From: Tubulanus polymorphus | Lineage: Eukaryota; Animalia; Nemertea | Direction of reading: 5' to 3' | DNA length: 64,000 nucleotides | NCBI RefSeq assembly: GCF_964204645.1 | Contig: NC_134034.1 | Span: 4,374,814-4,438,813 of the forward strand | Shown: positions 35,301-52,252 of the stretch, one piece after another | Position numbering within the stretch: the stretch's first letter is position 1 | How the letters are laid out: the number at the start of each line of letters is the position of its first letter | Program-made: the position numbers and the translations under genes | The notes under the pieces: model-generated | Database searches by the model: none | Seen by the model: only the letters and a program-made list of their open reading frames with translations | Told to the model about the DNA's origin: nothing

Positions 35301-36285
35301 CACTACTACCATCAGTGTGGTGGTAGTGTGGTACTTGGTCTGTTTGAGCCACTCGAGGGTTAGACCTTGGAGTAATCATTCAAATGATTACTCCAAGGTT
35401 AGACATTCACAAGTCTATCATAGGTTAATTTAGAACAGTGTAGCAAATAATCATTTCTTGAACTCTTATTATGCAGATCTTGGAATCCACAAATGCCAGT
35501 GTGCAAAGTGAATGTTCGCAGGTTTTCAGAGTCAAGAGACTTATCGAAAAGCTTCTGATGACTTTACTGAAACGGATTTGCGAACCGCCTGCATTTATGC
35601 AGGAACCGATTACGATGAAGGTAGATTAAACTAGTTCATACAACATCAACGCAAATAAGGATCTATTTATTGGATCTGCAACCCAAGAAGTCGTAGCAAA
35701 CGGTGTGAGAACGGCTACAAAGGATACATTCTACAAAGATGTTGTGAAATCCAACCAGGCCATATTAGATTACATCAAACTCAGGATAAATCCTGATCAT
35801 CAACCGTTATGGAAACATGCTGAAGTAAGTTCAACACATAACCTAGGCCCGATAATTCATAGTTTTTATTTTGTTTTAAAACATTTCAGGAGACGGAAGG
35901 TTTGCATTGAAATAAAAAAGATTAAAATATTTGTGGTACCGGTATCGTTATCACAGACCCCTCAGCTCTGTCTGAACCAGGATTTCCCTTTGTCTTATCT
36001 GATCCATCCCAAACCACTAATTATGGCTATTCATGGCTGTTATATCATGTTGTACCAATTATTTGCAGTTAGCGGATATATCACTCAGGCAGAACAAAAA
36101 GTATGCTGATATGAAATTCTTCGTGGACAAGTTTCCATGCATTACAGACGGACAGAATATTGATGCTATTGAAGAAGAATTTATTGATTATACAACGCTG
36201 AGCGATGGTGATCTCCCAGCAAATCTATTCTTACTAACAGCAACCAATGGATAGATTGTTCACCGACCTGCTGAGGAACAATAAA

Positions 36286-36474
36286 AGTAATAGGGGAATG
36301 TGGCTTCCATACCAAAGGTCGAAAGGTCGAGCTCGTAAAAAATGAAAATAACAATAATTTCCAGTTGAATTAGTCGCGCACACTTCTAATTCAACTAGAA
36401 ATTATTGTTATTTTCATTTTTTTACTCACTCACCCTTTCAACCTTTGATATGAAAGCCACATTCCCCTATTACT
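36286..36474. repeat. Terminal palindrome inside the left TIR
   Basis: Arm 36286-36373, loop TCGCGCACACTT, then a complementary arm ending CCCCTATTACT at 36474. Confidence 0.95.
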
Positions 36475-36677
36475 CTTAAAATATTCATTTACATGGATAA
36501 AATATATATGAATAACATATAAAAGTAATTAGAAAAGTGGGGTTTCAAGCCAGAGATCGGAGGTCGAGCTCTTATAGCATAGATATATAGATATATTTTA
36601 AACATATTTCAATATTTATATTTGTATGAGTTAGATTTTTAAACATTAAAAGTGTCAGTAAAGTGTGATTGAAATAA

Positions 36678-36846
<169 letters not shown>

Positions 36847-36894
36847 GAATAACATATAAATGAATAAAATATAAAATCTATTTAGTAAAAAAAT

Positions 36895-37560
36895 ATGTAT
36901 AATAAATGGAACCAGAAACCACAAACTATCAATATTACAAATAACACCGGCGTTATAAACATATACTACAAGAAGTGTTCTAAATGTGAATAAGATAAAT
37001 TAGCTATAACAGAATTTAATAAGCGTTAGATTAGCAAAGATGGTTTTCAATATTGCTGTAAAACTTGTATTAAACTATATGCCAAACAATACCGAGAAGA
37101 TAATAGAGAAGCTTATAATGATTATATGACAGAATATATGAGAGAAAGATATCAAACTGATTTTAATTTTAAAGTGAAACAATGCTTAAGATCTAGATTA
37201 ACACAATTATTCAACAAAGAAACACATTCAGAAACACTATCTAATTTGTTGGGTTGTACAAATGAATTTCTCAAATCATGGATGATATATCAATTCGACG
37301 ATAAAATGAATATAGATAATTATGGTGAATACTTTCATATTGATCATGTGTTGCCGATTTCTAAATTTGACATGAGTGATGATTATAATAAGAAGCTAAT
37401 ATGGAACTGGAGAAATTTAAGGCCTTTAGAAAAGAAGGAAAACATAATTAAATCTAATAAACTAGATTTACAGTTATATTTAGATCAAGTGGTTCAAGCA
37501 AAGACATTTGTTGAATTATGGAATAGTGATCCAAATAGTATTAGCCTAAAGAGATACTAA
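36895..37560 (+). pseudogene. HNH-family endonuclease (large-DNA-virus type) with N-terminal Zn ribbon
   Basis: KKCSKC...YCCKTC, then LRSRL...LLGCT...NYGEYFHIDHVLPIS.FD...NWRNLRPL...ENIIKSNK; two in-frame stops upstream of 37126. Confidence 0.8.
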
Positions 37561-37611
37561 TATCATTTTATAATACTGATAATATTTTTTTCGCTTTTTT
37601 CTCTAATATAA

Positions 37612-38190
37612 ATGTCAAAGAAATCGGGTAAGAATAATAGCGATATTGAAAAACGTTAGATGATTTAGGTATTAGTGATGATAAGGATATTCCGACCAAA
37701 ATAATATTCAAGTTAATAACAATATAGATTATGAATACTATTTATATTGTAAACACCATCTTGAGTTACTTATTGCTGGCGGGAAATCTACGGAGTTTTT
37801 AAATAGAATCATTACTTTTCAAGAACTAGACTCTATGAAACCAGATAAAGTCATAAAATATTTCAAGATTTATGAAGAAGCTAGATTAGCTAGAGTAAAT
37901 GATTCTATTTCAGATGGTATTGTCAAATGTAATTCAAAATTATGTAAACGGTTAATACCAATTGATGATGAAAATAAATTATATAGTGATTTGAAAAATG
38001 ACTTCTTAGTTATGACTGAATTACAAAAAAGGGTTGGTTACGCTTCATTTCAATTAGGATCGGTTATGACATTAATTTCTACTGGTGTCATCTGCGAACA
38101 TCAAACCTATGGAATATAAATCAGGTAAGAACGAAACAGATGTACTACAACCAAACGGCGAAACAGAAAATGAATCAGAACAAAAATTAA
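37612..38190 (+). pseudogene. Viral hypothetical protein, frameshifted
   Basis: Starts at TAAATG (37612); includes ORF 37835-38119; no recognised domain. Confidence 0.55.
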
Positions 38191-38199
38191 CTAAAATAA

Positions 38200-38595
38200 A
38201 TGAGTGATGGTATTGCCGTACGGCACCCACACAGTGACGTTAAGAAAAAGGTTAGATCTGAAAAACAAATTAAATGGGCAAGAGAATTAGGTAAAAGATC
38301 TGCAGAATTAAAAAAAGCTAAGAAAAAGAAATTAACTGATATAAATGAATCACAGACTTTATCTGATATTGATTCAAATAACAATCCATCTAATTCTTAT
38401 AATGCTGGAAGAAATAATTACTTATATATTACAATTGGGTTAATCACAATTATTATATTATCCGGTGTAATATATAAATCAAAATTAAAATCTGATGATA
38501 AAGATGATTCCAATGATGATAAACCTATTATACCAGAAAATAAGTCAAATCATAAAGCCATTGAAACTAAATCTAAATTATTATTAATGGATTAA
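38200..38595 (+). CDS. Basic single-TM viral protein
   Basis: Intact 131-aa ORF with basic N-terminus (RSEKQIKWARELG) and a hydrophobic span YLYITIGLITIIILSGVIY. Confidence 0.75.
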   Translation: MSDGIAVRHPHSDVKKKVRSEKQIKWARELGKRSAELKKAKKKKLTDINESQTLSDIDSNNNPSNSYNAGRNNYLYITIGLITIIILSGVIYKSKLKSDDKDDSNDDKPIIPENKSNHKAIETKSKLLLMD

Positions 38596-38601
38596 AATAA
38601 G

Positions 38602-39696
38602 ATGAAAAAAGAACAATATTTAAGAGATTTATATTATAACCCAGAAAGTGAAGTATCATATTCTAACGTTTCAGAATTATGGAGTAAAAGTAAATCTGAT
38701 AAAGAAAATGGTAATATAAAATATAGTGAATTAAAATCATGGTTACAAAATCAACCAACATATCAAATACACAAGAAAATGGATAAAACTTATTTAACAA
38801 GAAAAGTTATGGTTTCATATATCGATCAACAATGGCAAGCAAATTTAATTGACATGAAGAACTTAGAAGAACACAACAAAGGATATTTCTGGATATTAAA
38901 TGTTATAGATGTATTATAGATGTATTCAGTAGATACGCATGGTCAATTCCAATCAAAAATAAAACTGGTATAGAAGTAACAAATGATTTTAAATCAATTT
39001 TTAAAGAAGCTATTCCAGATAAGATACAATTTGATGAAGGTAAAGAATTTTATAACAAACATTTTAAAAAACTATTATCTGATAACGATGTAGAATATTT
39101 TTAAACACATTCAGATAAAAAAGCATCTATTATAGAAAGATTTAATAAAACATTGAAAACTAGAATGCGGAAATATTTTACTGCAAATGAAACATATAAA
39201 TATATCGATGTATTAGATGATTAAGTGAAAGATTATAATAATTCTAAACATAGTTCTATAAATATGAAACCTATACAAGCTAGAAAAGAAGATAATTCAG
39301 AAATAGTTTGGAATAATTTATACGGAGCATTTGTTACACATGATTTCGGTGAACCTAGATTTAAAATTGGACAACATGTTAGAATATCTAAATATAGAAA
39401 AACATTTTATAAGGGTTACACTCCAAATTTTACTGAAGAAATATTTAAAATCAAAAAGATAATATTAACTAAACCATTTGTTTATAAATAAGAAGATCTA
39501 AAAGATGAAGAAATATTAGGTTATTTCTATGAACAAGAATTATCACTTGTACCAAACCCAGATGAAATAGAATACAAAATAGAAAAAATATTGAAAACAA
39601 AAACTCTTAAAGGAAAAAAGTATTCTTTGGTGAAATATAAAGGATATGAAGATAAATTTAATGAATGGATTTTATCTAGTAAAATTAAAAGAATAA
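38602..39696 (+). pseudogene. Retroviral-like (rve) integrase with C-terminal chromodomain-like region
   Basis: YYNP, QWQANLIDM, IDVFSRYAW, IQFDEGKEF, ASIIERFNKTLK, YNNSKHSSINMKP, KGYTPNFTEEIF, VKYKGYEDKFNEWI; stops and a frameshift. Confidence 0.95.
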
Positions 39697-40302
39697 ATGA
39701 ATAAAGATTTATTTATATTTGAACCGCATAATATGTTAGTTACTGGAGTAACAAACTGCGGTAAAACACATTTCATATTAGATTTGTTAGAAACTATTTA
39801 TAAGAATCATTTTGATAATATAATATTATTCTGCCCTACTTATGAAATGAATAAAACATATAATAGAGATATAGTTAAGATAAAAAGGTTTATTATATTA
39901 GATCCTAAAACAGTAAAAGAAAATTTAGATAATTGTATAAAAATAGCATTAGATATTTATAAAGGATTAAATACATTATTCATTATAGATGATTGTGCTA
40001 ATTTACATGATTCAAAAGTTAGAGAAAGTGAGTTATGTTATCTAGCTTTCTCTGGGGGACATTTTGGGATAACAACATGGGTTTTAAATCAAAAATATAA
40101 TTCAATTGTTAAAGACTTTAGGGAGAATATAAGATTTTTAGTTTTATTCTACAATAAAGATAGAAAATCTATGCAACAATCATTGGAAGAAAATCAAATT
40201 ATACCTACTGAATTACATGATGAATATATGAATAAATTAAAGAAAGGTTCAAAATTATTACTGAGGCTTCAATTTCCCTATGAATATAAATTTATAAAAT
40301 AA
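39697..40302 (+). CDS. A32/FtsK-like DNA packaging ATPase
   Basis: Walker A GVTNCGKT, Walker B LFIIDD, SG(G)HFGIT...Q...REN. Confidence 0.93.
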   Translation: MNKDLFIFEPHNMLVTGVTNCGKTHFILDLLETIYKNHFDNIILFCPTYEMNKTYNRDIVKIKRFIILDPKTVKENLDNCIKIALDIYKGLNTLFIIDDCANLHDSKVRESELCYLAFSGGHFGITTWVLNQKYNSIVKDFRENIRFLVLFYNKDRKSMQQSLEENQIIPTELHDEYMNKLKKGSKLLLRLQFPYEYKFIK

Positions 40303-40344
40303 AATCCTAATTTGGAATATTATAGAAACTAATTTATATTTCTA

Positions 40345-40578
40345 TATACTAGACGTACGTAAGAATCCAAGATTCTTGCTAAGAAAGTAAGAAAGTAAGA
40401 ATTCTTGGATTCTTACTCGTACGTCTAGTACATAGATGTATAAATTATCAAATGAATTATATAAAAATGAATAAATTATATGTTTTCTCTTAATAAAAAT
40501 AAAAATACATTATATTATAACTATTTCTATACTTAGATTAATAGTTTTATGTTTTTAATTTTTTTGAAAATTATCATA

Positions 40579-40649
<71 letters not shown>

Positions 40650-40727
40650 TAGACGTACGAGTAAGAAAGTAAGATTTCTTGGATTCTTGGATTCTTACCA
40701 AGATTCTTACGTACGTCTAGTACATAG
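40345..40727. terminator. Two related palindromes between convergent viral transcription units (putative terminators)
   Basis: TACTAGACGTACG...CGTACGTCTAGTA at ~40347-40430 and ~40647-40722, separated by an AT-rich spacer and a (TA)n run. The function is inferred. Confidence 0.5.
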
Positions 40728-40750
40728 ATATAAAAATAGTTTTATTATAA

Positions 40751-41224
40751 TTATTCTAATTTTGTTTCTAATACATTTATAAAATCATCTCTGTTTATAT
40801 CTAATTCATCAAAAGTCTTAGGTAGATTTATTAATTTTAGTCGAGTCATCTTTGAATGATAATTAGTAGGTATATTAGCTTTTTCTCTTAATTTTTCTAA
40901 GTATTCATCAAAATCATCATTATCAAAATCAAATTGATATCCAAAATGTTTTATTAGATAACTTAAATCAATTTTTCCAAAATATAATAAAAAATAGATT
41001 TGTTCAGGATTATCTTCTGCATAAGCTAATAATTTATCAAATAACAACTTATAGAATATATAATATTGGTTAGTTTTAGGATTAAAATATTTGATATATT
41101 TCTCTGGGTTATTTAACAATGGTATCATACCCATTATTTTATAAACATTTATTAGATGTAATTTTGATTTATAATGAGTGTTTTCATCAACAGGTTCAAT
41201 TCTTTTATTACAATATTGGCACAT
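40751..41224 (-). CDS. Viral protein with N-terminal C2H2-type zinc finger
   Basis: MCQYC...HYKSKLH; intact 157-aa ORF. Confidence 0.7.
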   Translation of the reverse strand: MCQYCNKRIEPVDENTHYKSKLHLINVYKIMGMIPLLNNPEKYIKYFNPKTNQYYIFYKLLFDKLLAYAEDNPEQIYFLLYFGKIDLSYLIKHFGYQFDFDNDDFDEYLEKLREKANIPTNYHSKMTRLKLINLPKTFDELDINRDDFINVLETKLE

Positions 41225-41225
41225 T

Positions 41226-41947
41226 TTATTTCTTTCTATTTCTTCTAATTTCTTTTCATGTTCTTCTAACTTCCTTTCATTTTCGATATGCGCTTGAGAT
41301 TTTTTATGTTTAGAAAAATTACTTTTAGAAATATCTAAATCACAAATGTTACAATGTTTTTTAGAATCATCAATTGTTTCATTATCATAAGTTTCAATTA
41401 TATAAACATTATCTGTTATATTATCTATGGTATCATTTGTTTCAATTGTATTAACATTATCTATGATATTATCTATTATATTATTACCAGATATATTATT
41501 ATCATTATTATTCTTTTCTTTTTCTATATGTTTCTTTGATTTCTTATGTGATGCCCAATTTTTATATGATATATATTTCTTACATACATCACAATATTTT
41601 TGATTATAATAATCTTTTTTTTTGATTCAATATCATATGTAGAGGGTATATTATAAGATGTAGATGCTGTTACATCTTCTATTTTAGTTTCAATATTATT
41701 ACTATCTTCTATTTTAGTTTCAATATTATCTTCTATTTTATATTTAATATCATTCTTATCTTCTATTTCAGGTTCAATATTATTTTCTTTTTTTTGTTTC
41801 AATATTCTTATCTATTTTACTTATTCTATATTTGAATTGATTAAAGTATTCTCCAAAATACTTACTGTATTCATCATAAGGTAATATATAATATATATCT
41901 GATATCATTTCACTTGGAGTTTGTATTTCATATATTCCACCTTCCAT
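41226..41947 (-). pseudogene. Viral protein with C2H2 zinc fingers and acidic/Asn repeats, frameshifted
   Basis: Starts MEGGIYEIQTP at TAAATG (41947); IETKIED repeats; CDVC...HIRNQ and CNIC...HKKSQAH pieces. Confidence 0.6.
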
Positions 41948-41979
41948 TTAATATAAGATTTTTTATTAAAGTTAAAATT

Positions 41980-43155
41980 TTAATATTTCATAACTCCTTT
42001 TTTCTTTTTCATGAATAATTGTATTCCATCTTTAGTATTTTGTAGTTTTTTCTCAGAACCATGTAATGAATTATCCTCTGTTGTTCTAAAATCTAACCAT
42101 AATGCATATTTATTACCGGTATAATAATCAATTTGATTAATATTACAATTTTCAAATGATTTTACTTTTTCATTCATAAAATGTTTTCTAATTTCTGGCC
42201 ATTGATCTATCATTCTCATTCCTTGACGAAATATTTTATTTGCTATACCTTCAATTGTTATTTCTACTTTTGTTATTTCAGGATTAAAATAATTATCAAC
42301 ATTTATTGCACCATTAGTATATGTTGCAATGGTAAAAAATATTAATATACCTTTAATAGATCTTCTTGGGATGTTAACATTCTCATTAATTATTTCATCA
42401 TTTGCATAAATAGTTACAGTTTTAAATTTTTCAATATAATCATATAATAATGAAAATCCTTGGTTGTAATGAGTTTGAATTATGCTAGCAATATTTTCAT
42501 CAGTTACTGTATCATATTCTAAACATATATTCGATAATTCATAACCCATATCTTTAACAACGCTGGATAATACAATTTCATTTACAGGAGCAAATGTTAT
42601 TTCGAATATAATATCTTCTTGTATAACATATTTGTATAAAGGCGCATTATTATTTATCAATTCAAAGTCTAATGGAATTTTATATTTGCTTCCATAAATC
42701 TTTTTTATCAAATTATCTGTAGCATTAGTTACTACTGCATTATTAGCCTCAGATCTTAATTTATTTTGGTTTTCTGATTGGATGCCTTGAAATATCATAT
42801 TATTTCTATTTTCTTTTGTTAACCATAAATCTTTATAATGCATGAATAAATTATAATTATCTCATGAGAAAACTGTTTCTGGTCCAATCTTTACAGCTAA
42901 TTTTTTAATCAAATATCTCCCAACATTATCAACAACATAATTATTATTATTACCAGTTACTTTTATATCGGCTGATAAATAAATACTATTTGGAACATAA
43001 AAAGTATTTTGTGTTAATCGAGGAATTCTAACATATAAAGTTTCATCGGGATTAATATTAGAAGGGTCATGAGTAATTATATGATGTGATCTTTCTGCTT
43101 TTATAGCATTAGATATTATATGATTCTTCGAAGGACTTATATAACTCCCACTCAT
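41980..43155 (-). pseudogene. Major capsid protein (double jelly-roll, Polinton/adintovirus type), frameshifted
   Basis: ITHDPSNINPDETLYVRIPRL, VVDNVGRYLIKK, YKDLWLT, KIPLDFE, NICLEYDTV, NPEITKVEITIEG, KYALWLDFRT..DNSLHG. Confidence 0.82.
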
Positions 43156-43184
43156 TTATTTAACAAAAAAATTAATTATTAATT

Positions 43185-44590
43185 TTATATCATATTCACT
43201 AACCCAAAAATAATTGCACTTACAACTGTAATTAAAAATAAAATGATATGTTCAGCAGCAAAGTTAAGAATATTCCCAGCAGATTTCAATATAAAACCAA
43301 CAATTGACGCAATAACTCCGGGTAAAGCTGCAGCAGATTTTGTAGATAGTTCCCATAAATATTTTGCTAATTTCTTTAAACCATCCTTAACTTTATCTTG
43401 TATAGAATTATTATCATTCGGGAGTTTATCCGGTTTATTGGGAGTAGGAGTAGATTTCAGTGAGTTTTATATAGCTAAACCTATTGTTGTAAATTCCATA
43501 GTTACAGCTGTTAGAATTGAAAGAATTGTGATTCCTTCACTCTCAAATAATAATTTTATTCTATCTTTCAATGATATTTCAGAATTTGGTTTGATTATTA
43601 AATCTTTAACAACAACTTTTAATCTATTAATACAATAATCATGTGATTTTTTTAATAATTTAATTTCTTCTTTCTGAAATTCTATGTTATATTCTAAATT
43701 ATCAATTTCTTTTTCGAAATATACATTTCTTTTTTTAAATTCAATTTCTTCAATAACTTTATTATCTCTATCTAATTTTAATTGTTCTGATTCTTTTCTT
43801 GATTTAAATAATTTATCTTCTAAAGTTCGAATTTTAAAATCTCTTAACTTTTATCATGCGCAAATTTATCAGCTTTATTTTGTATACTAATAATTTCTCT
43901 AATTGCTTTATCAGAAAATATATTTAAATCTTCTAATTCTTGTTTTGTTGCATCAAGTAATCTATTTGGTAAAAGTTTTTCAGTTTGAACTCCTCTTGAA
44001 TTAGGTTTACTAGTTTTGGAAGTTATATTCTGTTCAGAAGTTGTTTCTGTTTCTAAATTATTATCGATTGTTTCAAATAATTCATTAATTCTTTGTTTAA
44101 ATACTCTTTCATTTTTAATAATTTCTTCTTGTGTTACATCTTCTATTTCATTACTATTTCTTATTCTTTTAATTCTAGATAGGTCTAACTTAAGCAAAGT
44201 TGATTCTGCTAATATTTTGTTTTGTTTTTTATAAGAGATATCAATATAATAATCATCTTTCAAATGATAATAATATTCATCATCTAATGATTTTAATTCT
44301 CTTACTAAATATCTAGCACCTCTATCATTGATATTATATCCTGATCTTTCAAATATAGGTTTGAAATTATAAATATATTCATTATATTCTAAATTTAGTT
44401 TTACTAAATCTGGATTTTCATTTTCAGGATTTATTCTCGATCTAATTCTTCTATCAAATTCATCTGTTAATGGGCCTTTAGAACCACTATCTGCTAAATT
44501 AGAATTATATGCTGATTCATCATCATTATCAATATTAGTTTCTGCATCATTATAATCATCATCAATATATCCTTCATTATTAATTCCCAT
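43185..44590 (-). pseudogene. Coiled-coil protein with long hydrophobic/amphipathic C-terminus (putative membrane-active virion protein)
   Basis: ORF 43844-44590 continues after a frameshift into LKDRIKLLFESEGITILSILTAV...AAALPGVIASIVGFILKSAG...HIILFLITVV. Confidence 0.65.
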
Positions 44591-44600
44591 TTCTCCGATT

Positions 44601-45085
44601 TCATAATCTTCTACACCTTCTGAGATTAATATTATTATCCAATTCCTTAAAATATTTAGATCCGGGTAAAGGACATTCTAATTCATTTAATATTATTCTG
44701 ATTTGAAAATATGTGTGAAATCTAAATATTGTGTGAATTAATTTTAAATCAGAATAATTCAAATTTTTATCTAAGTTATTCAAATGATCATTCCAACTTA
44801 TACCGCAACCAGTTGTTGCACAATAAACAGCAAAATTTAATTGATTCTGCCAATATTTCATATTAGATTTTACTTTATATATATGATATTCATCTCGAGT
44901 AAAAGTAACTTCATATGTATTAAATATATTTTAGAAATAAAAAACTGTGATTCAGTAACATAAATTTCTAAATTAGTTAATGAATTTAAAACTAAATTTT
45001 TATATGTAATATTTTTGTTAAAATCTATTGCAGGAATATTATATTTGATTGATTTATTATATTGCAAAGCTTTTGGAAACCCCTT
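44601..45085 (-). pseudogene. Conserved Polinton-like-virus hypothetical protein (YWQNQLNFAVYCATTGCGIS)
   Basis: Two ORF pieces 44870-45067 and 44601-44861; the start codon appears mutated (TAAAAG for TAAATG at 45085). Confidence 0.65.
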
Positions 45086-45116
45086 TTATATAATAAGAAA
45101 ATTAATAATTTATTAA

Positions 45117-45523
45117 TTATTTTAATAATTTATCTTGTTCTTCAACTGTTATATTACCATTTAAACTTATTATATAATCTAGTGTATTCTTCAATTTATT
45201 AATTTCTTTTATATTAGTTTTAATTTTTTCTTTATTACTTTTTATATTTAATTTTGAACTTATGCAGGTTAATACACTTGATGATAATCCTAACACACCA
45301 ATTGATATAGCTACTGAATATTGCTAGAAATGATATTACAGAACTAATTGTAACCGAACCACTGATAATAAGATAATATATAATTTTACTTTTTAAATAT
45401 TTTTTTCTTTTTTATCTTTAAGTCACTTTCAAATTGTAATATTCGTTTTTCTAAATATATTTTTAATTTAGTTTTATTTATATCATGAGGAATAATATTA
45501 ACACCATCAACTTCATCATCCAT
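45117..45523 (-). pseudogene. Small two-TM viral protein
   Basis: MDDEVDGVNIIPHD..., hydrophobic spans IIYYLISGSVTISSVI and ISIGVLGLSSSVL, ends DYIISLNGNITVEEQDKLLK; frameshifts. Confidence 0.6.
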
Positions 45524-45588
45524 TTATTTAGAAAAAAATTACTAATTAGTAAATTTATAAGCAACAAATATAACAATAACTGTTCCCC

Positions 45589-45942
45589 CTAAATTCCAAT
45601 TTTACTTGGGGTATAATAATCTGATATTGTAGGTTTATGTAGATGTAATTTTTCTTTATTGGTTACTGCGTTATATAAACTCATTGCATCATCAACTGAT
45701 TGAAAATCTCTATGTGAAATCTTCTGATTATATAATTCCTTGTTAATATAATCCATATAGTTTTGTCTTTTTTCTCTGTATTCTTCTGCAGCTTTATTAT
45801 ATTTTTCTAATGCTAAGTTATGTCTTTTTTGTTCTGTTAATGAACCATTTTTATCAATATGTTTAAATAAATAACCACCACCAGTAAATGCTAAAGCGTT
45901 AACTTTTGCTGATCCTAAAATAGTTATAATTGCAGAAGCCAT
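45589..45942 (-). CDS. Viral protein with hydrophobic N-terminus and coiled coil
   Basis: MASAIITILGSAKVNALAFTGGGYLF...EQKRHNLALEK; preceded by the conserved motif. Confidence 0.75.
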   Translation of the reverse strand: MASAIITILGSAKVNALAFTGGGYLFKHIDKNGSLTEQKRHNLALEKYNKAAEEYREKRQNYMDYINKELYNQKISHRDFQSVDDAMSLYNAVTNKEKLHLHKPTISDYYTPSKIGI

Positions 45943-45967
45943 TTATTTAGCAAAAAAAATTATGCAA

Positions 45968-46189
45968 TTATATGGGAGGAATATATTTTTGTTTTTCCAA
46001 ATAATCAAAAGTTAAATTAGATAAAGTAACTGCTAACGTTAATTTTAAAATATCATTTATATCAAATCTATCAACATCAACACTTCCCATTTTAAATACT
46101 TTTTTTAATACCATTGAATAACCAACAGTTCCAACTGATAGTAATGCTCCATTATATAATCCAGTTATTATCCACTTATTATCACTCAT
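45968..46189 (-). CDS. Small hydrophobic viral protein
   Basis: Intact 73-aa ORF with two hydrophobic segments; preceded by the conserved motif. Confidence 0.75.
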   Translation of the reverse strand: MSDNKWIITGLYNGALLSVGTVGYSMVLKKVFKMGSVDVDRFDINDILKLTLAVTLSNLTFDYLEKQKYIPPI

Positions 46190-46204
46190 TTATTTATAAA
46201 AAAA

Positions 46205-46532
46205 TTACTTTCTTCAAAATATTTAGTTATCTTATTTATGATTAATTCAACATTTATAGTATTATTAGGTTCATTTTCATATATTTCAGTTATTATTCTT
46301 TTAATATCATCAATTATAAAATCTTCATCTAATTCATAAAATCTTAAAGACTCGGTAATCTTTTCTACATTAAAGTTTCATTATCTATTGTTTTTTCATA
46401 CTCAAATGATGTTTCATTAGAAAATGCAATATTTTTAATATGTGTTATTACATCATTAATGTTAAATTTCATTTCTTTCTCATGTTTAAAATCAAATCCA
46501 AAACATATACTCGATCCAACAGTTATATTCAT
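46205..46532 (-). pseudogene. Viral hypothetical protein
   Basis: Starts MNITVGSSICFGF at the conserved motif; frameshift near 46380. Confidence 0.5.
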
Positions 46533-46548
46533 TTATATAGTGAAAAAA

Positions 46549-47055
46549 TTACTCTTTACATCTTATAATTACAGGAAAGTTATTCAAATCAATTAAATAA
46601 CCATTATGATTTCTAATTTCTAATTCAAAATTGTTAAATCGTGAAATACAAGGTATAAAATCACATTCTGTTAAATTATATATTATTTTCGTTCCGAATT
46701 GTTTAACATTTTGTAATGGTATAATATTTAATATACTAGAATTACAAGTTATATCTTTAGTTGCTTCAAAATTTTTTGTAGCATCAATTAAATCGCAATA
46801 AATATAAAAATGTGTGTTAGGTATTAAGTTTGGCGTAGCATCAATATTTGTGAAAGACCTGTCTGGAGGAATTCCTAACAGTTTAGCTATAGGTTTTTTA
46901 CCATAAATTTATTTTTTTCACTATTAGACAACCTTATCTTTATTCTATCAGAACTCTCACTTTTTAAAAATCTAATACTAAAACCGGAATTACTACCTAA
47001 TTTGTGCAAGGCTTTTTATTAATTTCTTGTTCTAATGTATCTAAAATTTCGTTAA
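46549..47055 (-). pseudogene. Minor capsid (penton-like) protein, 5' part deleted
   Basis: IAKLLG...FYIYCDLID...SSILNIIP...NNFELEIRNHNGYLIDLNNFPV, a typical single jelly-roll penton C-terminal pattern; not in the ORF track. Confidence 0.72.
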
Positions 47056-50000
47056 ACATTTCGTGATCTTCTGATCTTAAACATTTCATCTTATGTTTTC
47101 TAACTTCTTCATTGAATATACAATTGATATAATCTTTGAAATGAATATTCTTTTCTACTACACTTTTGGTTATTCCTTTTAACTTTTTAGCTTCATGTTC
47201 TTTAGTTTTATATGAATACATTTTTGATCTAATACCAATGAATTCAATCATTTCTTCACCGCCTAATTCATTCTTAAACTTCCCGGGTCGCTTTTTATTA
47301 TCATTGCTAAACAATTCATGATTTTTAGGATAGTTACTAAAATCAAAATGATGTTTTAATGTTTCTAAATCATCAGTTATGTTATTAGTTTTTATCTTTA
47401 ATATGTAAGAATCTGTATCAAAATATAATATTTCTATATGTTTTTCTCCAAAATGAGGTTGTAATACATTATAATAGAATTCATACATCAATAGCTTTGA
47501 TATTTCTAAAACTGAAGCACCAACATAGATTGGTTTATTAAATTTCATAGAAGTTCTTCTCATTTTAACTGCAGCTAAATTTTCATCAAATATTCTGTTA
47601 CCTATAAACTTAGGATATGTTTGTAAATGTCTAATTCTTTTACCATTACTAACTAACTCAATACCATTTCTATTTCTAATATTTTCACAAGTCTTACCAT
47701 AGAATGCATTGTTCATTAACTTAAAGAAATCTTTTTCGAAATCAGTTTTAGCTTTAGTTCTCTGTTTGGTGTTAAAATCTATATATTTTTCTAACCATTT
47801 AGATTGACTAAATGAAATATATCTATGTACTTTTTTAAATACCATTCCTTGATTCAAATAAAACTTTAACATTCTATAATGTTTTACATAATTATATTTA
47901 TCTTCTTGAGTTACCATTAACTTTTCTGTATGAATATGATTTTCGGGTTTAATTCTTTTTTGATAATTTGATAATTCTTCATGAGTTACAGTTTTATGTT
48001 CGGGACAGTATGCTAGATTTCTAGTTTTAAATTTAATATGGTCAGGATATTCTAAATCTACTACAAAGAAGTAACCAGTATCTGAATAATCTGCAATATG
48101 TAGGATTCTTTTCTTCCAATCAAATTTATCATTATTTTCATGTTGTAAAACTTCACTTATTTCAAATACTCCATAAGGTTGTGGTTCCATCATTGCCCAT
48201 CCATATAAATTATTTGCATCTATATATAATAACTTATATCCAGGGTTATCATTTACATTGAAATATCTATCCCCTAATACACCTGAAACTCCTCCTCTTA
48301 TACATTTTTCAAATAATAATAATTGATCTATATTTGTTAACAAATCCATTTTTATATCTGTAAATTTTAAACCACAATCCCAAGTTAATCCTGGACTAGA
48401 ATAACAATGACAAGGATCAATGTTAAAATATTTTAGGTTTACATCTCTAAACCTTTCGAATATATCCGATAATAATAATACATCTGATTTTAAATATAAA
48501 TCTACTAATTGTCCATGATTTTTCATTCCAAAATGATACCAAATATTCAATGTTCTATTATAGACTTCATCTTTAACATGTTCATTTTTTAATTCATCAT
48601 AAAATTGTTCTTTTAATAATTCAGTTATATTGAAATCATTATGTGATATATAAAAACTATATGGTATTGCTCCTTTATACCTCATTAATTGAAAATCATC
48701 ATTATTTGGATAGTGTTGTTTTAATATTTTTAATTCATCATCAACTAATGATTTTGATAAATTATCTAATGAACTATTTAAAAATCTATATGAATCTATA
48801 AATCTTAGGCAACCAAATTGGAATGATATATAATTCTCAGATGTTCTAGCTAACATTTTTAATTTATAAGTTGGTATTTTATCTTTTGATCTATTTGAAT
48901 TTAATCTTTCCATTTCATTATTAATTTCTTCTATTTTATGACATAACTGTTTGATGAATAAATGTGCATCATATCCTGATAGATTATGAAATATAACTGG
49001 AACAAAATTCATTTTCTTTGCTTGCAAATTACAATTCTCATGCGCAGCGCCTCTAAACTTTCCGTTCAAATGATCATGGTCTCTTACTTTTTTAACTTTA
49101 TAATTAAATATCTTTTCACAATAATAACATTTACCTGAAAACACAAATTCTTCTTTATCTTCTTCTGTCATAATCATTTTTTTATTTGTATTCAATAATT
49201 TACTAAATCTTATTTCATATTCAATTAATAAGTCACAAAAATGATTGATAACATTTTAATTTCTATAATGATAATATTCACTTTCAATTAGTTTTGGATA
49301 ATCAGATTTAATATATAACCCGAAAGCAGCAGCTGATTGATGAATCTTTTTAATTGTATTTGTTTTTGGTGGTTCATCTGAAAAATCATTTTCATTAGAA
49401 TTTAATTTCTCTCTTTTATAATATATTTCTTTTCTATCTTGATCAGTTAATTCTTTATTTAATGATTCAAAATCTCCATATATAACAAATGGTACTTTAT
49501 TTTTGTAATCATATTTTTTGAATTCTAATATTTATCCTTTTCATTTGGTGAAACTAATTTACAATAATCATGATTATCACATAATTGTTTATGATTTAAT
49601 AATGTACTTTCATTACTGAATCTATGTAAACATTTTCTACATAGATCAATTTTACGATGATGATCACTTTCTGTTCTAAAGAATAAATCGATTTGTTTAA
49701 TCCACATATAATGATTTTCATAATATAATATATCTACAACATCATTTGAATCATAATCTTTTGATAGGTATAAAGGTTCTAATGTAAAATGTTTTATATT
49801 GATGCCTTTTGTTTTTGGTAATTTGATTAAATCAAATACTTTTATTCTTAAATTATTATCTCTTTCTATTTTTTGGATATTTTTAATTCTAAATGGATAC
49901 TTATCTATCTTATAATTATTTTCAAATTGTTTATAATTTGTTAATCTAAAACTATGTGTAATATCTTCTGTTTGATGTGAGCAACTTATAATTGTCCATA

Positions 50001-50910
50001 GAAAATATTTATCATCAAAATTTTGTACATTTATAACAGCATTAGTTTTAAATGGTAGTTTAATATAACTTGATGCTTCAATATCTGGTTCTTTATAATA
50101 TGATACATTATTTTCATCTATTGGTTTTGATTTAGTTAACTTATTATATTTTGTGTTAGACACATGTAAAGTCTGATGAAATATTATTTCATCAAATATT
50201 AAACCAGATCCTTCAAAATATTTCTCTTCTATTTTAGTTTTTACTTCATTATAACATTTATCTAATTTATCATCTATATGTTGTTTAGATATAATATGTT
50301 GTGAATGAGAATTTATATTATATATTGTTTAATCTTCAGATTTTATAAATTTAACCATAGAAGATATACTAATTTTAGGGTATTCAACATCAGTGATTAT
50401 TTTTATAATATTTTTCATATTTTCTAAATGTTTTTTATTTTCTTCTAAAGTTTTTCCTTTATGAAATTTAAACTCAATAGCAGCTGGACCAATATCACTT
50501 TTAACTGCTTTTTTATTATCTAATGAATTAATATAATTTCTTACATCTTCCATGTATGGTCTTTTATTGTTTAATTTATTTCTTATTCTTTTAATTGTCT
50601 TAAGTTTCTTATCATTGTCATTATCAAAATAATCCTCACCTAAAATATCATTATTCATATTTCTAATATGGCTTTTAGATTTTAAATGTTCATTATAATA
50701 TCTTTTATCACTGAATGATTGATTACATGTATCACATTTGTATGTTTCTTTTTCATTCTTTAATTCATCTAATTTAGTTTCTAACATATCATCTTCATAT
50801 TCTAATTTCAATTTATTCTCTAAATGAGTTTTGGTTTTATTGTGTCTTGATTTTTGGGATTTATCTATATTGATTTTACATGTTGAACAGTAGTACTTAT
50901 TTGTTTCCAT
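47056..50910 (-). pseudogene. Protein-primed family B DNA polymerase (pPolB), disrupted
   Basis: N-terminal zinc fingers; PFVIYGDFES (exo I), VRDHDH...AHENCN insert, FHNLSGYDAH (exo II), YIDANNLYG, KLMNNAFYGK, YFDTDS, KLKGI. Several frameshifts and the C-terminal end is missing. Confidence 0.96.
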
Positions 50911-51208
50911 TTTAATACTAAAAATTTTTAATTTTTAAATTGATTTTACACATTTTATTCATTTATATTTTATTCATTTATATGTTATTCATGTATATAT
51001 ATGAATTATTTCAATCACACTTTACTAACACTTTTTATGTTTAAAAATCTAACTCATACAAATATAAATATTGAAATAAGTTTAAAATATATCTATATAT
51101 CTATTCTATAAGAGCTCGACCTCCGACCTCTGACTTGAAACCCCACTTTTCTAATTACTTTTATATGTTATTCATATATATTTTATCCATCTAAATGAAT
51201 ATTTTAAG

Positions 51209-51395
51209 AGTAATAGGGGAATGTGGCTTTCATATCAACGTTGAAAGGGTGAGTGAGTAAAAAATGAAAATAACAATAATTTCTAGTTGAATTAGGAGTG
51301 TGCGCGACTAATTCAACTGGAAATTATTGTTATTTTCATTTTTTACGAGCTCGACCTTTCGCCCTTTGGTATGAAAGCCACATTCGCCTATTATT
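51209..51395. repeat. Terminal palindrome inside the right TIR
   Basis: AGTAATAGGGG at 51209 through CGCCTATTATT at 51395; mirror of 36286-36474. Confidence 0.95.
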
Positions 51396-52252
51396 AATAA
51401 AGAAAGATGTCTCAGCTTCTTGACATTACAGGATCTAAAAGGGAATTACATAGCATTGTTAATATTGTAGTATCCCAAAATGTTCACAATAGTCAAATAT
51501 CATGTTTGTTACAGGTAATAAAAATACCCCTTTATTCTTTATTCTACAGGTTCAAGTTCCTTCCAAGAGTAATGGTCACAATCCTCTTGTTTCCTGTCAG
51601 TAATGCCTGCTGTGAACGAGTGTTTAGCACAATTAGAAAGAACAAGACAGATTTCCAATTCTGTCTTTCACCGAAAACTCTCATCTGCTTTGAGTCCTTG
51701 ATGATCTTGAAGATACGTGGTAGAGCCTGTCACCTGAATTGTCACAGTGGCAGCCTTTTGAACAGCTGCAAATCTTCAACCAGGCAGTCATTGCAAAAAT
51801 AACTTTCTTAACCGGAATGTTTTGAGAGACATGTTTTATCCTGTTAATATGATTGTTCTCATATTAAGTAGTTTAAGATGATATTCTCTGTTGGTTAACA
51901 AGTTTTTTTAGTATTATTGAGTGAATCACGATGTTCACTGTTTTTGTTAGTTTTCATTTTTATCATATTTTTAGCATGACAATCAAACGATCTAATCAGA
52001 CGATGTAACAGTTATTTTCACGTGTTGCTACAATCAAAAGTGTAAAATATAGTCATTTATTTGGTTGTAAGATTTACGTTTTTGTTCCTGGTAGTACTGA
52101 ATAGGATAGGACTTGGATTTATAATATCTCAACACTTCATTGATTGTTGACTGATTATTGACTGTTCAAATACCTGGTATATATGATATTTTGGTTAGCC
52201 AGAGTTACTTCCTGCATCATACTTTATCTAGAATTGATGATAAATTTTCCTT

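What the first reader, a model, noticed from the sequence alone, without database searches (positions are those of the whole stretch)
43153..46551. Poxvirus-late-like TAAATG promoter motif on the virion genes of the endogenous Polinton-like virus: a possible animal virophage
Seen: five - strand genes start with nearly the same motif: TAATTTTTTTGTTAAATAAATG (MCP, ATG 43155), TAATTTTTTTCTAAATAAATG (45523), TAATTTTTTTTGCTAAATAAATG (45942), TAATTTTTTTATAAATAAATG (46189) and TAATTTTTTCACTATATAAATG (46532). TAAATG also opens genes at 36906, 37612, 38200, 39697 and 41947, TAAAATG opens 41224 and 50910, and a mutated copy sits at 45085. The element is intronless, very AT-rich and shows no RNA polymerase gene. 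Known: TAAATG overlapping the start codon with an upstream T-rich tract is the poxvirus late promoter, TTTTTNT is the poxvirus early terminator, and virophages such as mavirus carry their helper's late promoter. Inference: this element may be transcribed by the polymerase of a co-infecting cytoplasmic large DNA virus, i.e. an integrated helper-dependent virus and possibly a host defence.
Basis: partly seen in the sequence, partly recalled or inferred. Interest (0 to 1): 0.88.

Follow-up and report, generated by a model that had tools for sequence, protein, structure and literature searches.

The report
Integrated virus with poxvirus-style promoters
A decayed 15-kb virus-like element in what is likely an animal genome, and its whole branch of relatives, start nearly every gene at a signal built like a poxvirus late promoter, so these elements likely borrow the RNA polymerase of a co-infecting large DNA virus, which would make them animal counterparts of the virophages known from protists.

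Summary
The motif is real and wider than reported. The window holds a decayed 15,110-bp Polinton-like virus (inverted repeats, 6-bp target duplication, pPolB, integrase, ATPase, double-jelly-roll capsid, no RNA polymerase hit). TAAATG opens 10 of 12 surviving gene starts, against 42 of 622 ATGs overall. In independent relatives it opens 39 of 47 starts in the same capsid clade but 5 of 273 in other members of the family, which use ordinary A-rich start contexts (3 of 46 in AT-rich ones). Upstream lies an A-then-T core peaking at -13/-12, and divergent genes sit 24-30 bp apart, as in a poxvirus locus. Stop-start overlap (3 of 79), poly(A) signals and splice acceptors do not explain it. It marks replication genes too, not only virion genes; TTTTTNT is not enriched; 41224 is not a gene start. 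Best reading: promoters read by a helper virus's polymerase, most likely pox-type, though iridovirus-like genomes use a looser version. No helper, transcript start or defence effect was shown. My paper searches found no report of this; the scan noted a similar case in another genome (e1-8580207).

The parts
36286..51395 (.). Integrated Polinton-like virus, 15,110 bp, 23% GC, decayed (many genes broken); nested in a hAT transposase remnant
36280..36285 (+). Left 6-bp target site duplication (AATAAA)
51396..51401 (+). Right 6-bp target site duplication (AATAAA)
36286..36875 (+). Left terminal inverted repeat, begins AG, contains an expanded TA run; first 189 nt form a near-perfect palindrome
   Evidence: 418 of 430 identical to right repeat; z -18.8
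50962..51395 (-). Right terminal inverted repeat
36906..37560 (+). Endonuclease VII/HNH-like gene, broken by stops; starts at TAAATG; first gene after the repeat, no upstream gene
   Evidence: (phrog_1035, E 1.6e-12)
37612..38119 (+). Conserved gene of unknown function, broken; T-tract plus TAAATG
38200..38595 (+). Conserved basic protein gene; TAAATG
38602..39704 (+). rve integrase with chromodomain, broken; start lacks TAAATG in this copy
39697..40302 (+). A32-type packaging ATPase; TAAATG
   Evidence: Pox_A32, E 5e-10
40330..40447 (.). Long hairpin between the two convergent gene blocks (a second related palindrome at about 40643-40727)
   Evidence: z -12.4
40751..41947 (-). Accessory zinc-finger-like gene, broken by frameshifts; TAAATG at 41947; 41224 is internal; present in a minority of copies
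41980..43155 (-). Double-jelly-roll major capsid protein gene, one internal stop
43153..43174 (-). Promoter-like motif 1 (T7, 6-nt spacer, TAAATG) of the capsid gene
   Evidence: -15..-1 identical at 15 of 15 to L001
43185..44590 (-). Remnant of conserved about 485-aa gene, 5' end and promoter deleted
44601..45085 (-). 5' remnant of conserved about 442-aa gene; upstream tract kept, start codon lost; intact relative has no fold match
45105..45523 (-). Two-helix membrane protein gene (SLATT-like, below cut-off), broken
45521..45541 (-). Promoter-like motif 2 (T7, 5-nt spacer, TAAATG)
45589..45942 (-). Conserved small gene with hydrophobic N-terminus
45940..45962 (-). Promoter-like motif 3 (T8, 6-nt spacer, TAAATG)
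45968..46189 (-). Conserved 73-aa gene
46187..46207 (-). Promoter-like motif 4 (T7, 5-nt spacer, TAAATG), inside the end of the upstream gene
46186..46532 (-). Small acidic gene, broken
46530..46551 (-). Promoter-like motif 5 (T6, 7-nt spacer, TAAATG)
46549..46908 (-). 3' half of a 254-aa gene, likely the minor capsid protein (inferred from size and place, not tested); 5' half deleted
46997..50910 (-). Protein-primed family B DNA polymerase with endonuclease VII domain and N-terminal zinc fingers, broken; starts at TAAAATG after a T-tract

Best explanation
The element is an integrated Polinton-like virus whose genes start at a fixed A/T core, 5-7-nt spacer and TAAATG, and this signal likely serves as a late or intermediate promoter read by the RNA polymerase of a co-infecting cytoplasmic large DNA virus, most likely of poxvirus type. 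Shown: the anatomy, the motif at replication and virion genes alike, its conservation across the clade, its absence from sister elements with the same genes, and its match in geometry to a poxvirus locus. Inferred: the helper's polymerase would open at TAAA, slip on the A run to add a 5' poly(A) leader (recalled poxvirus mechanism), and so express integrase, polymerase, ATPase and capsid only after the helper has entered its post-replicative phase; integrated copies would stay silent until then, as with mavirus. How a nuclear copy reaches the cytoplasmic polymerase is unexplained. Whether this harms the helper and protects the host is not shown. Odds: about 0.7 for some large-DNA-virus polymerase, about 0.5 for a pox-type one, about 0.25 for a defence role.
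For: (1) 10 of 12 surviving starts in the window, against 42 of 622 ATGs. (2) Homologue-supported starts in 14 loci of the same capsid clade: 39 of 47 TAA-ATG, 0 TAG, 1 TGA; out-of-frame internal ATGs 30 of 620; 53 other loci 5 of 273; 14 AT-rich other loci 3 of 46; 3 clade loci at 36-44% GC 8 of 10. Four of the 8 exceptions carry TAAAT one to three bases earlier or a one-letter variant. (3) The same gene families occur in both groups: e.g. ATPase 10 of 12 versus 0 of 46. (4) The window sits in a 15-row capsid clade, support 100/99, with 14 TAAATG and one TGAATG. (5) Among 79 TAAATG starts, T at -12 in 63 and at -13 in 59, versus 35 and 39 of 120 non-start TAAATG; A at -18 in 47 versus 33. PMC11980589 gives a conserved T ten bases upstream of TAAAT for late promoters and an AT-rich patch 15-19 upstream for intermediate ones; PMC5294985 gives a T core 5-7 bp from TAAAT(G/A). 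(6) One orthopoxvirus-type locus shows the same profile (10 of 24 starts; A at -19..-17, T at -14..-12) and divergent gaps of 30 and 24 bp; the elements have back-to-back TAAATG pairs at 14, 24, 28, 28, 28, 29, 30 and 72 bp. (7) L140, fetched by polymerase similarity and not by motif, has TAAATG at 7 of 7 ORFs. (8) No RNA polymerase, TBP or TFIIB family among 29 window pieces or the relatives' proteins scanned. (9) Precedent: virophages share the helper's late promoter (PMC10945749); Polinton-like viruses occur in entomopoxvirus occlusion bodies (PMC11296320).
Against: No helper virus was found and no transcript start was observed. A weight matrix of the upstream core scores poxvirus and iridovirus-like TAAATG starts alike (means -0.21 and -0.80, p 0.97) and both below the elements' own starts (3.6-4.0); L140's starts score only -1.0 with T at -13/-12 in 2 of 7. 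The poxvirus comparison rests on 10 starts of one locus. I found no poxvirus-derived gene in the element or the scanned relatives. The label needs 3 changes on the capsid tree, with non-TAAATG elements (L015-L018) nested among TAAATG ones. The integrase start in this copy lacks the motif. The element has reached a high copy number, which must be squared with dependence on an infection reaching the germ line. Hosts of the related loci are unknown.
Confidence: 0.55

Rival explanations
1. Same helper-dependent mechanism, but the helper is another large DNA virus (iridovirus-like, asfarvirus-like or undescribed) rather than a poxvirus.
For: In 75 iridovirus-like loci fetched by VLTF3 similarity, TAAA lies within -10..+1 of 428 of 596 distinct starts and 111 are exact TAAATG; several such contigs carry the near-identical AATTTTTTT..AAATAAATG; the core matrix does not separate them from poxvirus starts. 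L001 carries a deoxynucleoside kinase whose look-alikes include large-DNA-virus clusters.
Against: Their spacing to ATG is loose (19% exact TAAATG, 29% AAA-ATG) and TT at -13/-12 occurs in 24 of 111, against 38 of 61 in the elements and 5 of 10 in the poxvirus locus. Asfarvirus-like and other orders were not compared.
Confidence: 0.18
2. The motif is a nuclear promoter used by host RNA polymerase II, either as an initiator or through a transcription factor encoded by the element, with no helper.
For: Several conserved genes have no known function; other scan notes describe Polintons with their own TBP and private boxes (unchecked); integration requires a nuclear phase.
Against: A TATA-like box at -18..-12 would place a polymerase II start downstream of the ATG, and a start inside TAAA leaves a leader of about two bases (general knowledge, not tested). 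T at -3 in 85% of starts runs against the A at -3 seen in 55-78% of sister elements. No TBP or TFIIB hit; the conserved unknown genes are shared with elements lacking the motif; the 442-aa protein has no fold match.
Confidence: 0.13
3. TAA-ATG is a translation-level device: stop-start coupling on polycistronic RNA, or an in-frame stop that insulates the start codon.
For: TAA is in frame with the ATG by construction; genes are tightly packed; 3 of 79 starts do use the upstream gene's stop.
Against: 76 of 79 do not; TAG and TGA would serve equally but occur 0 and 1 times in 47, even in loci at 36-44% GC; variants TAAAT-ATG break the frame but keep TAAAT; it does not explain the fixed core at -18..-12 or divergent pairs.
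Confidence: 0.09
4. AATAAA overlapping the ATG is the polyadenylation signal of the upstream gene, or the T-tract is a trans-splice acceptor.
For: AATAAA ends at the ATG in 29 of 79 starts and TATAAA or ATTAAA in 28 more.
Against: The motif occurs at 22 starts whose neighbour points away (23 rows, one due to a spurious ORF) and at the first gene after the repeat; T at -12 is as common there (19 of 23) as in tandem genes (38 of 50); only TAAA is invariant; AG is present within -12..-1 in only 15 of 79.
Confidence: 0.05

Closest known systems
Poxvirus late and intermediate promoters (vaccinia; PMC11980589, PMC5294985, PMC12917281)
   Same: TAAAT(G/A) overlapping the start codon, T peak ten bases upstream, A-rich patch at about -18, back-to-back promoters sharing 24-30 bp.
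   Different: Sits on a 15-kb integrating element with no polymerase hit; used at over 80% of genes including DNA polymerase and ATPase, with no early class evident; activity untested.
Mavirus and endogenous mavirus-like elements of Cafeteria (PMC10945749)
   Same: Integrated rve/pPolB capsid-encoding element, no RNA polymerase, one promoter type resembling a large virus's late promoter; different element types carry different motifs.
   Different: Different motif, different capsid lineage, animal-type host, helper unknown, reactivation and protection not shown.
Entomopoxvirus-associated Polinton-like viruses (AHEV_PLV1/2, CBEV_PLV1; PMC11296320)
   Same: Small Polinton-like viruses of animals proposed to parasitise poxviruses.
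   Different: Those were found in occlusion bodies and the paper's main text has no promoter analysis (0 hits for TAAAT, motif, transcription). AHEV_PLV1 has a cysteine protease and a PF21738-like capsid; their capsids look unlike this one by eye (not aligned). Their DNA was not held, so their starts were not checked.
Maverick/Polinton elements (Polintoviricetes, adintoviruses; PMC8502044; bioRxiv 10.64898/2026.06.19.733378)
   Same: Inverted repeats starting AG, 6-bp duplication, pPolB, rve integrase, A32 ATPase, double-jelly-roll capsid.
   Different: No cysteine protease hit and no PF21738 match (0 of 39; weak Capsid_N in 15 of 39); may belong to the animal-derived elements outside the two main Maverick groups noted in that preprint (not tested); sister elements of the same family use ordinary A-rich start contexts.

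Membership tests
Poxvirus-type late promoter | TAAAT followed by G or A, overlapping the start codon | tested here: met
   10 of 12 window starts; 39 of 47 clade starts
Poxvirus-type late promoter | T-rich core 5-7 bp upstream, conserved T about ten bases before TAAAT | tested here: met
   spacers 5-7 in the five motifs; T at -12/-13 in 63 and 59 of 79 versus 35 and 39 of 120 controls; definition
Poxvirus-type late promoter | Distinguishable from promoters of other large DNA viruses | tested here: inconclusive
   fixed spacing and T peak favour poxvirus but the core matrix does not separate pox from iridovirus-like starts, p 0.97
Poxvirus-type late promoter | Initiation inside the A run with non-templated 5' poly(A) leader | not testable with these tools
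   needs raw RNA reads; feature recalled
Poxvirus-type late promoter | Activity depends on viral RNA polymerase and late factors | not testable with these tools
   needs a reporter or in vitro assay
Maverick/Polinton (Polintoviricetes) | Terminal inverted repeats and 6-bp target duplication | tested here: met
Maverick/Polinton (Polintoviricetes) | pPolB, rve integrase, A32 ATPase | tested here: met
Maverick/Polinton (Polintoviricetes) | Double-jelly-roll capsid protein | tested here: met
   model pLDDT 90.6; Foldseek E 1e-16 to iridovirus and PBCV-1 capsids
Maverick/Polinton (Polintoviricetes) | Adenovirus-type cysteine protease | tested here: not met
   no such Pfam family in 29 window pieces or scanned relatives; the window copy has deletions
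Maverick/Polinton (Polintoviricetes) | Capsid of the Maverick lineage (PF21738 or placement with reference groups) | tested here: inconclusive
   0 of 39 match PF21738; no reference sequences were available for a tree
Virophage lifestyle (mavirus/EMALE-like) | No own RNA polymerase | tested here: met
   (profile and fold searches; a very divergent factor could be missed)
Virophage lifestyle (mavirus/EMALE-like) | Promoter shared with an identified helper of the same host | tested here: inconclusive
   matches poxvirus design but no helper identified; no host genome held
Virophage lifestyle (mavirus/EMALE-like) | Silent without helper, replicates with it, lowers helper yield | not testable with these tools
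   needs infection data
Lavidaviridae (virophage family) | Virophage-type major capsid protein | tested here: not met
   no Sputnik-type capsid Pfam in 39 members; mavirus capsid ranks 44th in the fold search

The most novel reading that the evidence does not exclude
A widespread branch of Polinton-like viruses integrated in invertebrate genomes, in tens to hundreds of copies, are parasites of still undescribed poxviruses: their promoters are a genomic footprint of those poxviruses, the switch between host-type and helper-type promoters happened more than once within one virus family, and the integrated copies act as an inherited, infection-triggered defence, the first in animals.
Probability: 0.25. 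Interest if true: 0.92.

Novelty: new variant of a known kind. Interest (0 to 1): 0.72.

Why it matters
How Polinton-like elements in animals are expressed, and whether any depends on a helper virus, is open; no virion or helper is established for them apart from the entomopoxvirus-associated cases, which were not examined for promoters. A two-state split in start context inside one family gives a sequence-only way to sort these elements into likely host-transcribed and likely helper-transcribed kinds, predicts large cytoplasmic DNA viruses in hosts where none is described, and is testable with a 30-bp reporter or with 5' ends in existing RNA data.

Tried and rejected
No host genome was held, so sibling copies and host gene starts could not be analysed. 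No RNA holder was listed and the one possible RNA run gave 0 laid contigs: no evidence either way on expression. Capsid searches of viral contigs found nothing. The entomopoxvirus-associated genome KJ683044 was not held; records behind five viral loci were not held. TTTTTNT: not enriched in the element; in coding strands it is depleted against synonymous shuffles in TAAATG loci (26 versus 53) but also in the others (43 versus 59), and A-runs are depleted too, so I do not count it. Hairpins at convergent junctions as a clade feature: RNAfold shows them in the window, L002 and L004, but a strict finder scored 1 of 10 junctions versus 0 of 41 and missed the window's own: unresolved. Looking for a poxvirus-derived or transcription gene: none in Pfam, NCBIfam, PHROGs, PDB or fold searches; the endonuclease gave only 4 unnamed homologues. 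Short divergent gaps alone are not specific: non-TAAATG elements have them too. Rows dropped: 10 near-duplicate loci; 9 capsids under 300 aa, 4 without an in-frame ATG and 8 partial matches left out of the tree; 7 of 8 near-identical poxvirus loci. The six 'other TAAATG' loci were chosen by their capsid start, so only their non-capsid starts count: 16 of 19 (from the list).

Full report
What is there. Positions 36286-51395 hold a 15,110-bp element of 23% GC in flanks of 32-50% GC. It has terminal inverted repeats (418 of 430 identical; the left begins AG), a 6-bp duplication AATAAA on both sides and sits in a hAT remnant. It encodes a pPolB with an endonuclease VII domain, an rve integrase with chromodomain and an A32 ATPase, and a capsid protein whose intact relative folds as a double jelly roll (pLDDT 90.6; E 1e-16 to iridovirus and PBCV-1 capsids). 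Most genes are broken and two internal deletions removed two gene starts. An animal host is inferred from a secretin-family GPCR and a ligand-gated channel fragment in the flank. In an independent DNA run of the same species label, depth over the capsid gene is about 800-990 while only 106 of 14,934 laid reads are 99% or more alike, which points to roughly a hundred or more diverged copies (rough, different individual).

The observation. The five motifs are exact and their ATGs match the N-termini of intact orthologues in L001. Because the long pattern was drawn from these hits, I used fairer tests: 10 of 12 surviving starts carry TAAATG against 42 of 622 ATGs in the element. The exceptions are the integrase and the polymerase (TAAAATG). 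41224 is internal, and TTTTTNT is no more frequent than in shuffles (84 versus 103).

Independent relatives. A capsid alignment fetched 80 metagenome loci and 3 contigs in prokaryote bins. On a 62-row tree the window lies in a 15-row clade (100/99) in which 14 capsid genes start at TAAATG and one at TGAATG; a 39-row group has none; four further TAAATG rows lie outside the clade and the label needs 3 changes. Counting only starts supported by a homologue, after dropping 10 near-duplicates: 39 of 47 in the clade, 16 of 19 non-capsid starts in six other TAAATG loci, 5 of 273 in 53 other loci (3 of these from two loci that could not be labelled), 3 of 46 in the AT-rich ones, 8 of 10 in clade members at 36-44% GC, and 30 of 620 out-of-frame internal ATGs. 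The other elements have A at -3 in 55-78% of starts; the clade has T in 85%. The two groups share their gene families, so the difference lies in the signal and not in gene content. The motif marks ATPase, integrase and polymerase genes as well as capsid genes. L140, found by polymerase similarity, has it at 7 of 7 ORFs.

Architecture. Among 79 TAAATG starts, A is favoured at -18..-16 and T at -14..-12 (T at -12 in 63 of 79 versus 35 of 120 non-start TAAATG). A matrix trained on relatives separates the window's 10 starts from its 32 other TAAATG sites (p 1e-4). The upstream gene's stop supplies the TAA in 3 of 79 cases; 22 starts face a divergent neighbour, with eight back-to-back pairs 14-72 bp apart (six at 24-30); AATAAA covers 29 of 79 and AG lies within 12 bases in 15 of 79. 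These counts remove stop-start coupling, poly(A) overlap and splice acceptors as general explanations.

Comparison with large DNA viruses. Reviews describe the poxvirus late promoter as TAAAT(G/A) over the start codon, a T core 5-7 bp upstream and a conserved T ten bases upstream, with an AT-rich patch at 15-19 in intermediate promoters (PMC11980589 and PMC5294985, passages); the TAAA is read by the viral polymerase itself (PMC12917281, passages). One orthopoxvirus-type locus (label from an exact match to the paper's G8R scaffold and recalled gene names) gave 10 of 24 TAAATG starts with A at -19..-17, T at -14..-12 and divergent gaps of 30 and 24 bp. Against this, 75 iridovirus-like loci (label from VLTF3 similarity, Pfam hits and recall) have TAAA near 428 of 596 starts but exact TAAATG in 111 and a weaker T peak, and the core matrix does not tell them from the poxvirus starts (p 0.97). 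A pox-type helper is therefore favoured by the fixed spacing and the T peak, not proven.

Mechanism. No polymerase or general transcription factor was found in the window or the scanned relatives; the largest unknown conserved protein has a confident model but no fold match. A box at -18..-12 is too close to the ATG for host polymerase II (general knowledge). The simplest reading is that all genes are transcribed by a helper's post-replicative machinery, starting inside TAAA with a slippage-made poly(A) leader (recalled), as virophages use their helper's late promoter (PMC10945749, passages). Unshown: the helper, the start sites, silence without infection, the route from nucleus to cytoplasm, and any benefit to the host. 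Notes on TBP-bearing Polintons (e1-8146203, e1-8577431) prompted the test of a self-encoded factor.

What is known. Polinton-like viruses in entomopoxvirus occlusion bodies are published, without promoter analysis in the main text (PMC11296320: passages, section 6, first part and searched rows of the supplement; its four figure files were unreadable). PMC8502044 (passages, section 10), PMC11131425 (passages), bioRxiv 10.64898/2026.06.19.733378 (passages, section 7) and 10.1101/2024.03.23.586382 (passages) show no promoter analysis in what I read; preprint supplements were not seen. Searches pairing Polinton or Maverick with TAAATG, TAAAT, late promoter and poxvirus listed no paper on this by title or abstract (open-licence PubMed Central and bioRxiv only; most listed papers were seen as listings only). 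The element is not filed as a Maverick of the main groups (no protease, no PF21738) nor as a member of the virophage family; it likely works like a virophage.

Verdict. Observation largely confirmed and much strengthened; interpretation partly supported. New variant of a known kind; interest 0.72.

Noticed in passing
window 36286-36474 and the matching end of the right repeat: The first 189 nt of the terminal repeat form a near-perfect palindrome starting at base 1 (z -18.8), suggesting hairpin ends or hairpin-primed replication; a terminal hairpin also occurs in L070 and L034, which lack TAAATG.
   Followed up: partly
window 40330-40447 and about 40643-40727; L002 3044-3208; L004 3183-3255: Long hairpins of unrelated sequence at the junction of the convergent gene blocks, possibly terminators or an origin.
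   Followed up: partly
L140 1-9034: A separate pPolB/integrase/ATPase element with TAAATG at 7 of 7 ORFs and an integrase with a long N-terminal extension that looks protease-like by eye.
   Followed up: partly
L138 1719-13579: A contig with a Sputnik-type capsid gene and a related pPolB; 0 of 10 starts are TAAATG.
   Followed up: no
L001 10340-10981: Deoxynucleoside kinase gene in the closest intact relative, with TAAATG start.
   Followed up: partly
proteins P0183 and P0185: Polymerase relatives (58% and 45% identical) carrying intein Pfam domains.
   Followed up: no
window 45105-45523; L001 2541-2975: SLATT-like two-helix membrane protein (NCBIfam E 3.8e-5, below cut-off): a candidate effector under the same promoter; similar genes occur in non-TAAATG elements too.
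   Followed up: partly
L141-L215: Iridovirus-like genomes have TAAA within ten bases of 428 of 596 start codons with an A-rich patch about 16 bases upstream: a possible general initiator not described in the review I read.
   Followed up: partly
L015 6543-7052: A non-TAAATG element nested among TAAATG ones has a weak VLTF3-like gene (Pfam E 6.4e-4).
   Followed up: no
window 36033-36285 and 51396-51802: The element is inserted into a hAT transposase remnant; the flanks hold a Harbinger-type transposase, a LINE reverse transcriptase, a secretin-family GPCR and a ligand-gated channel fragment.
   Followed up: partly
proteins P0020, P0124-P0131: Capsid proteins 54% identical to the window's are filed under Bartonella assemblies on short contigs, probably host DNA carried along.
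   Followed up: no
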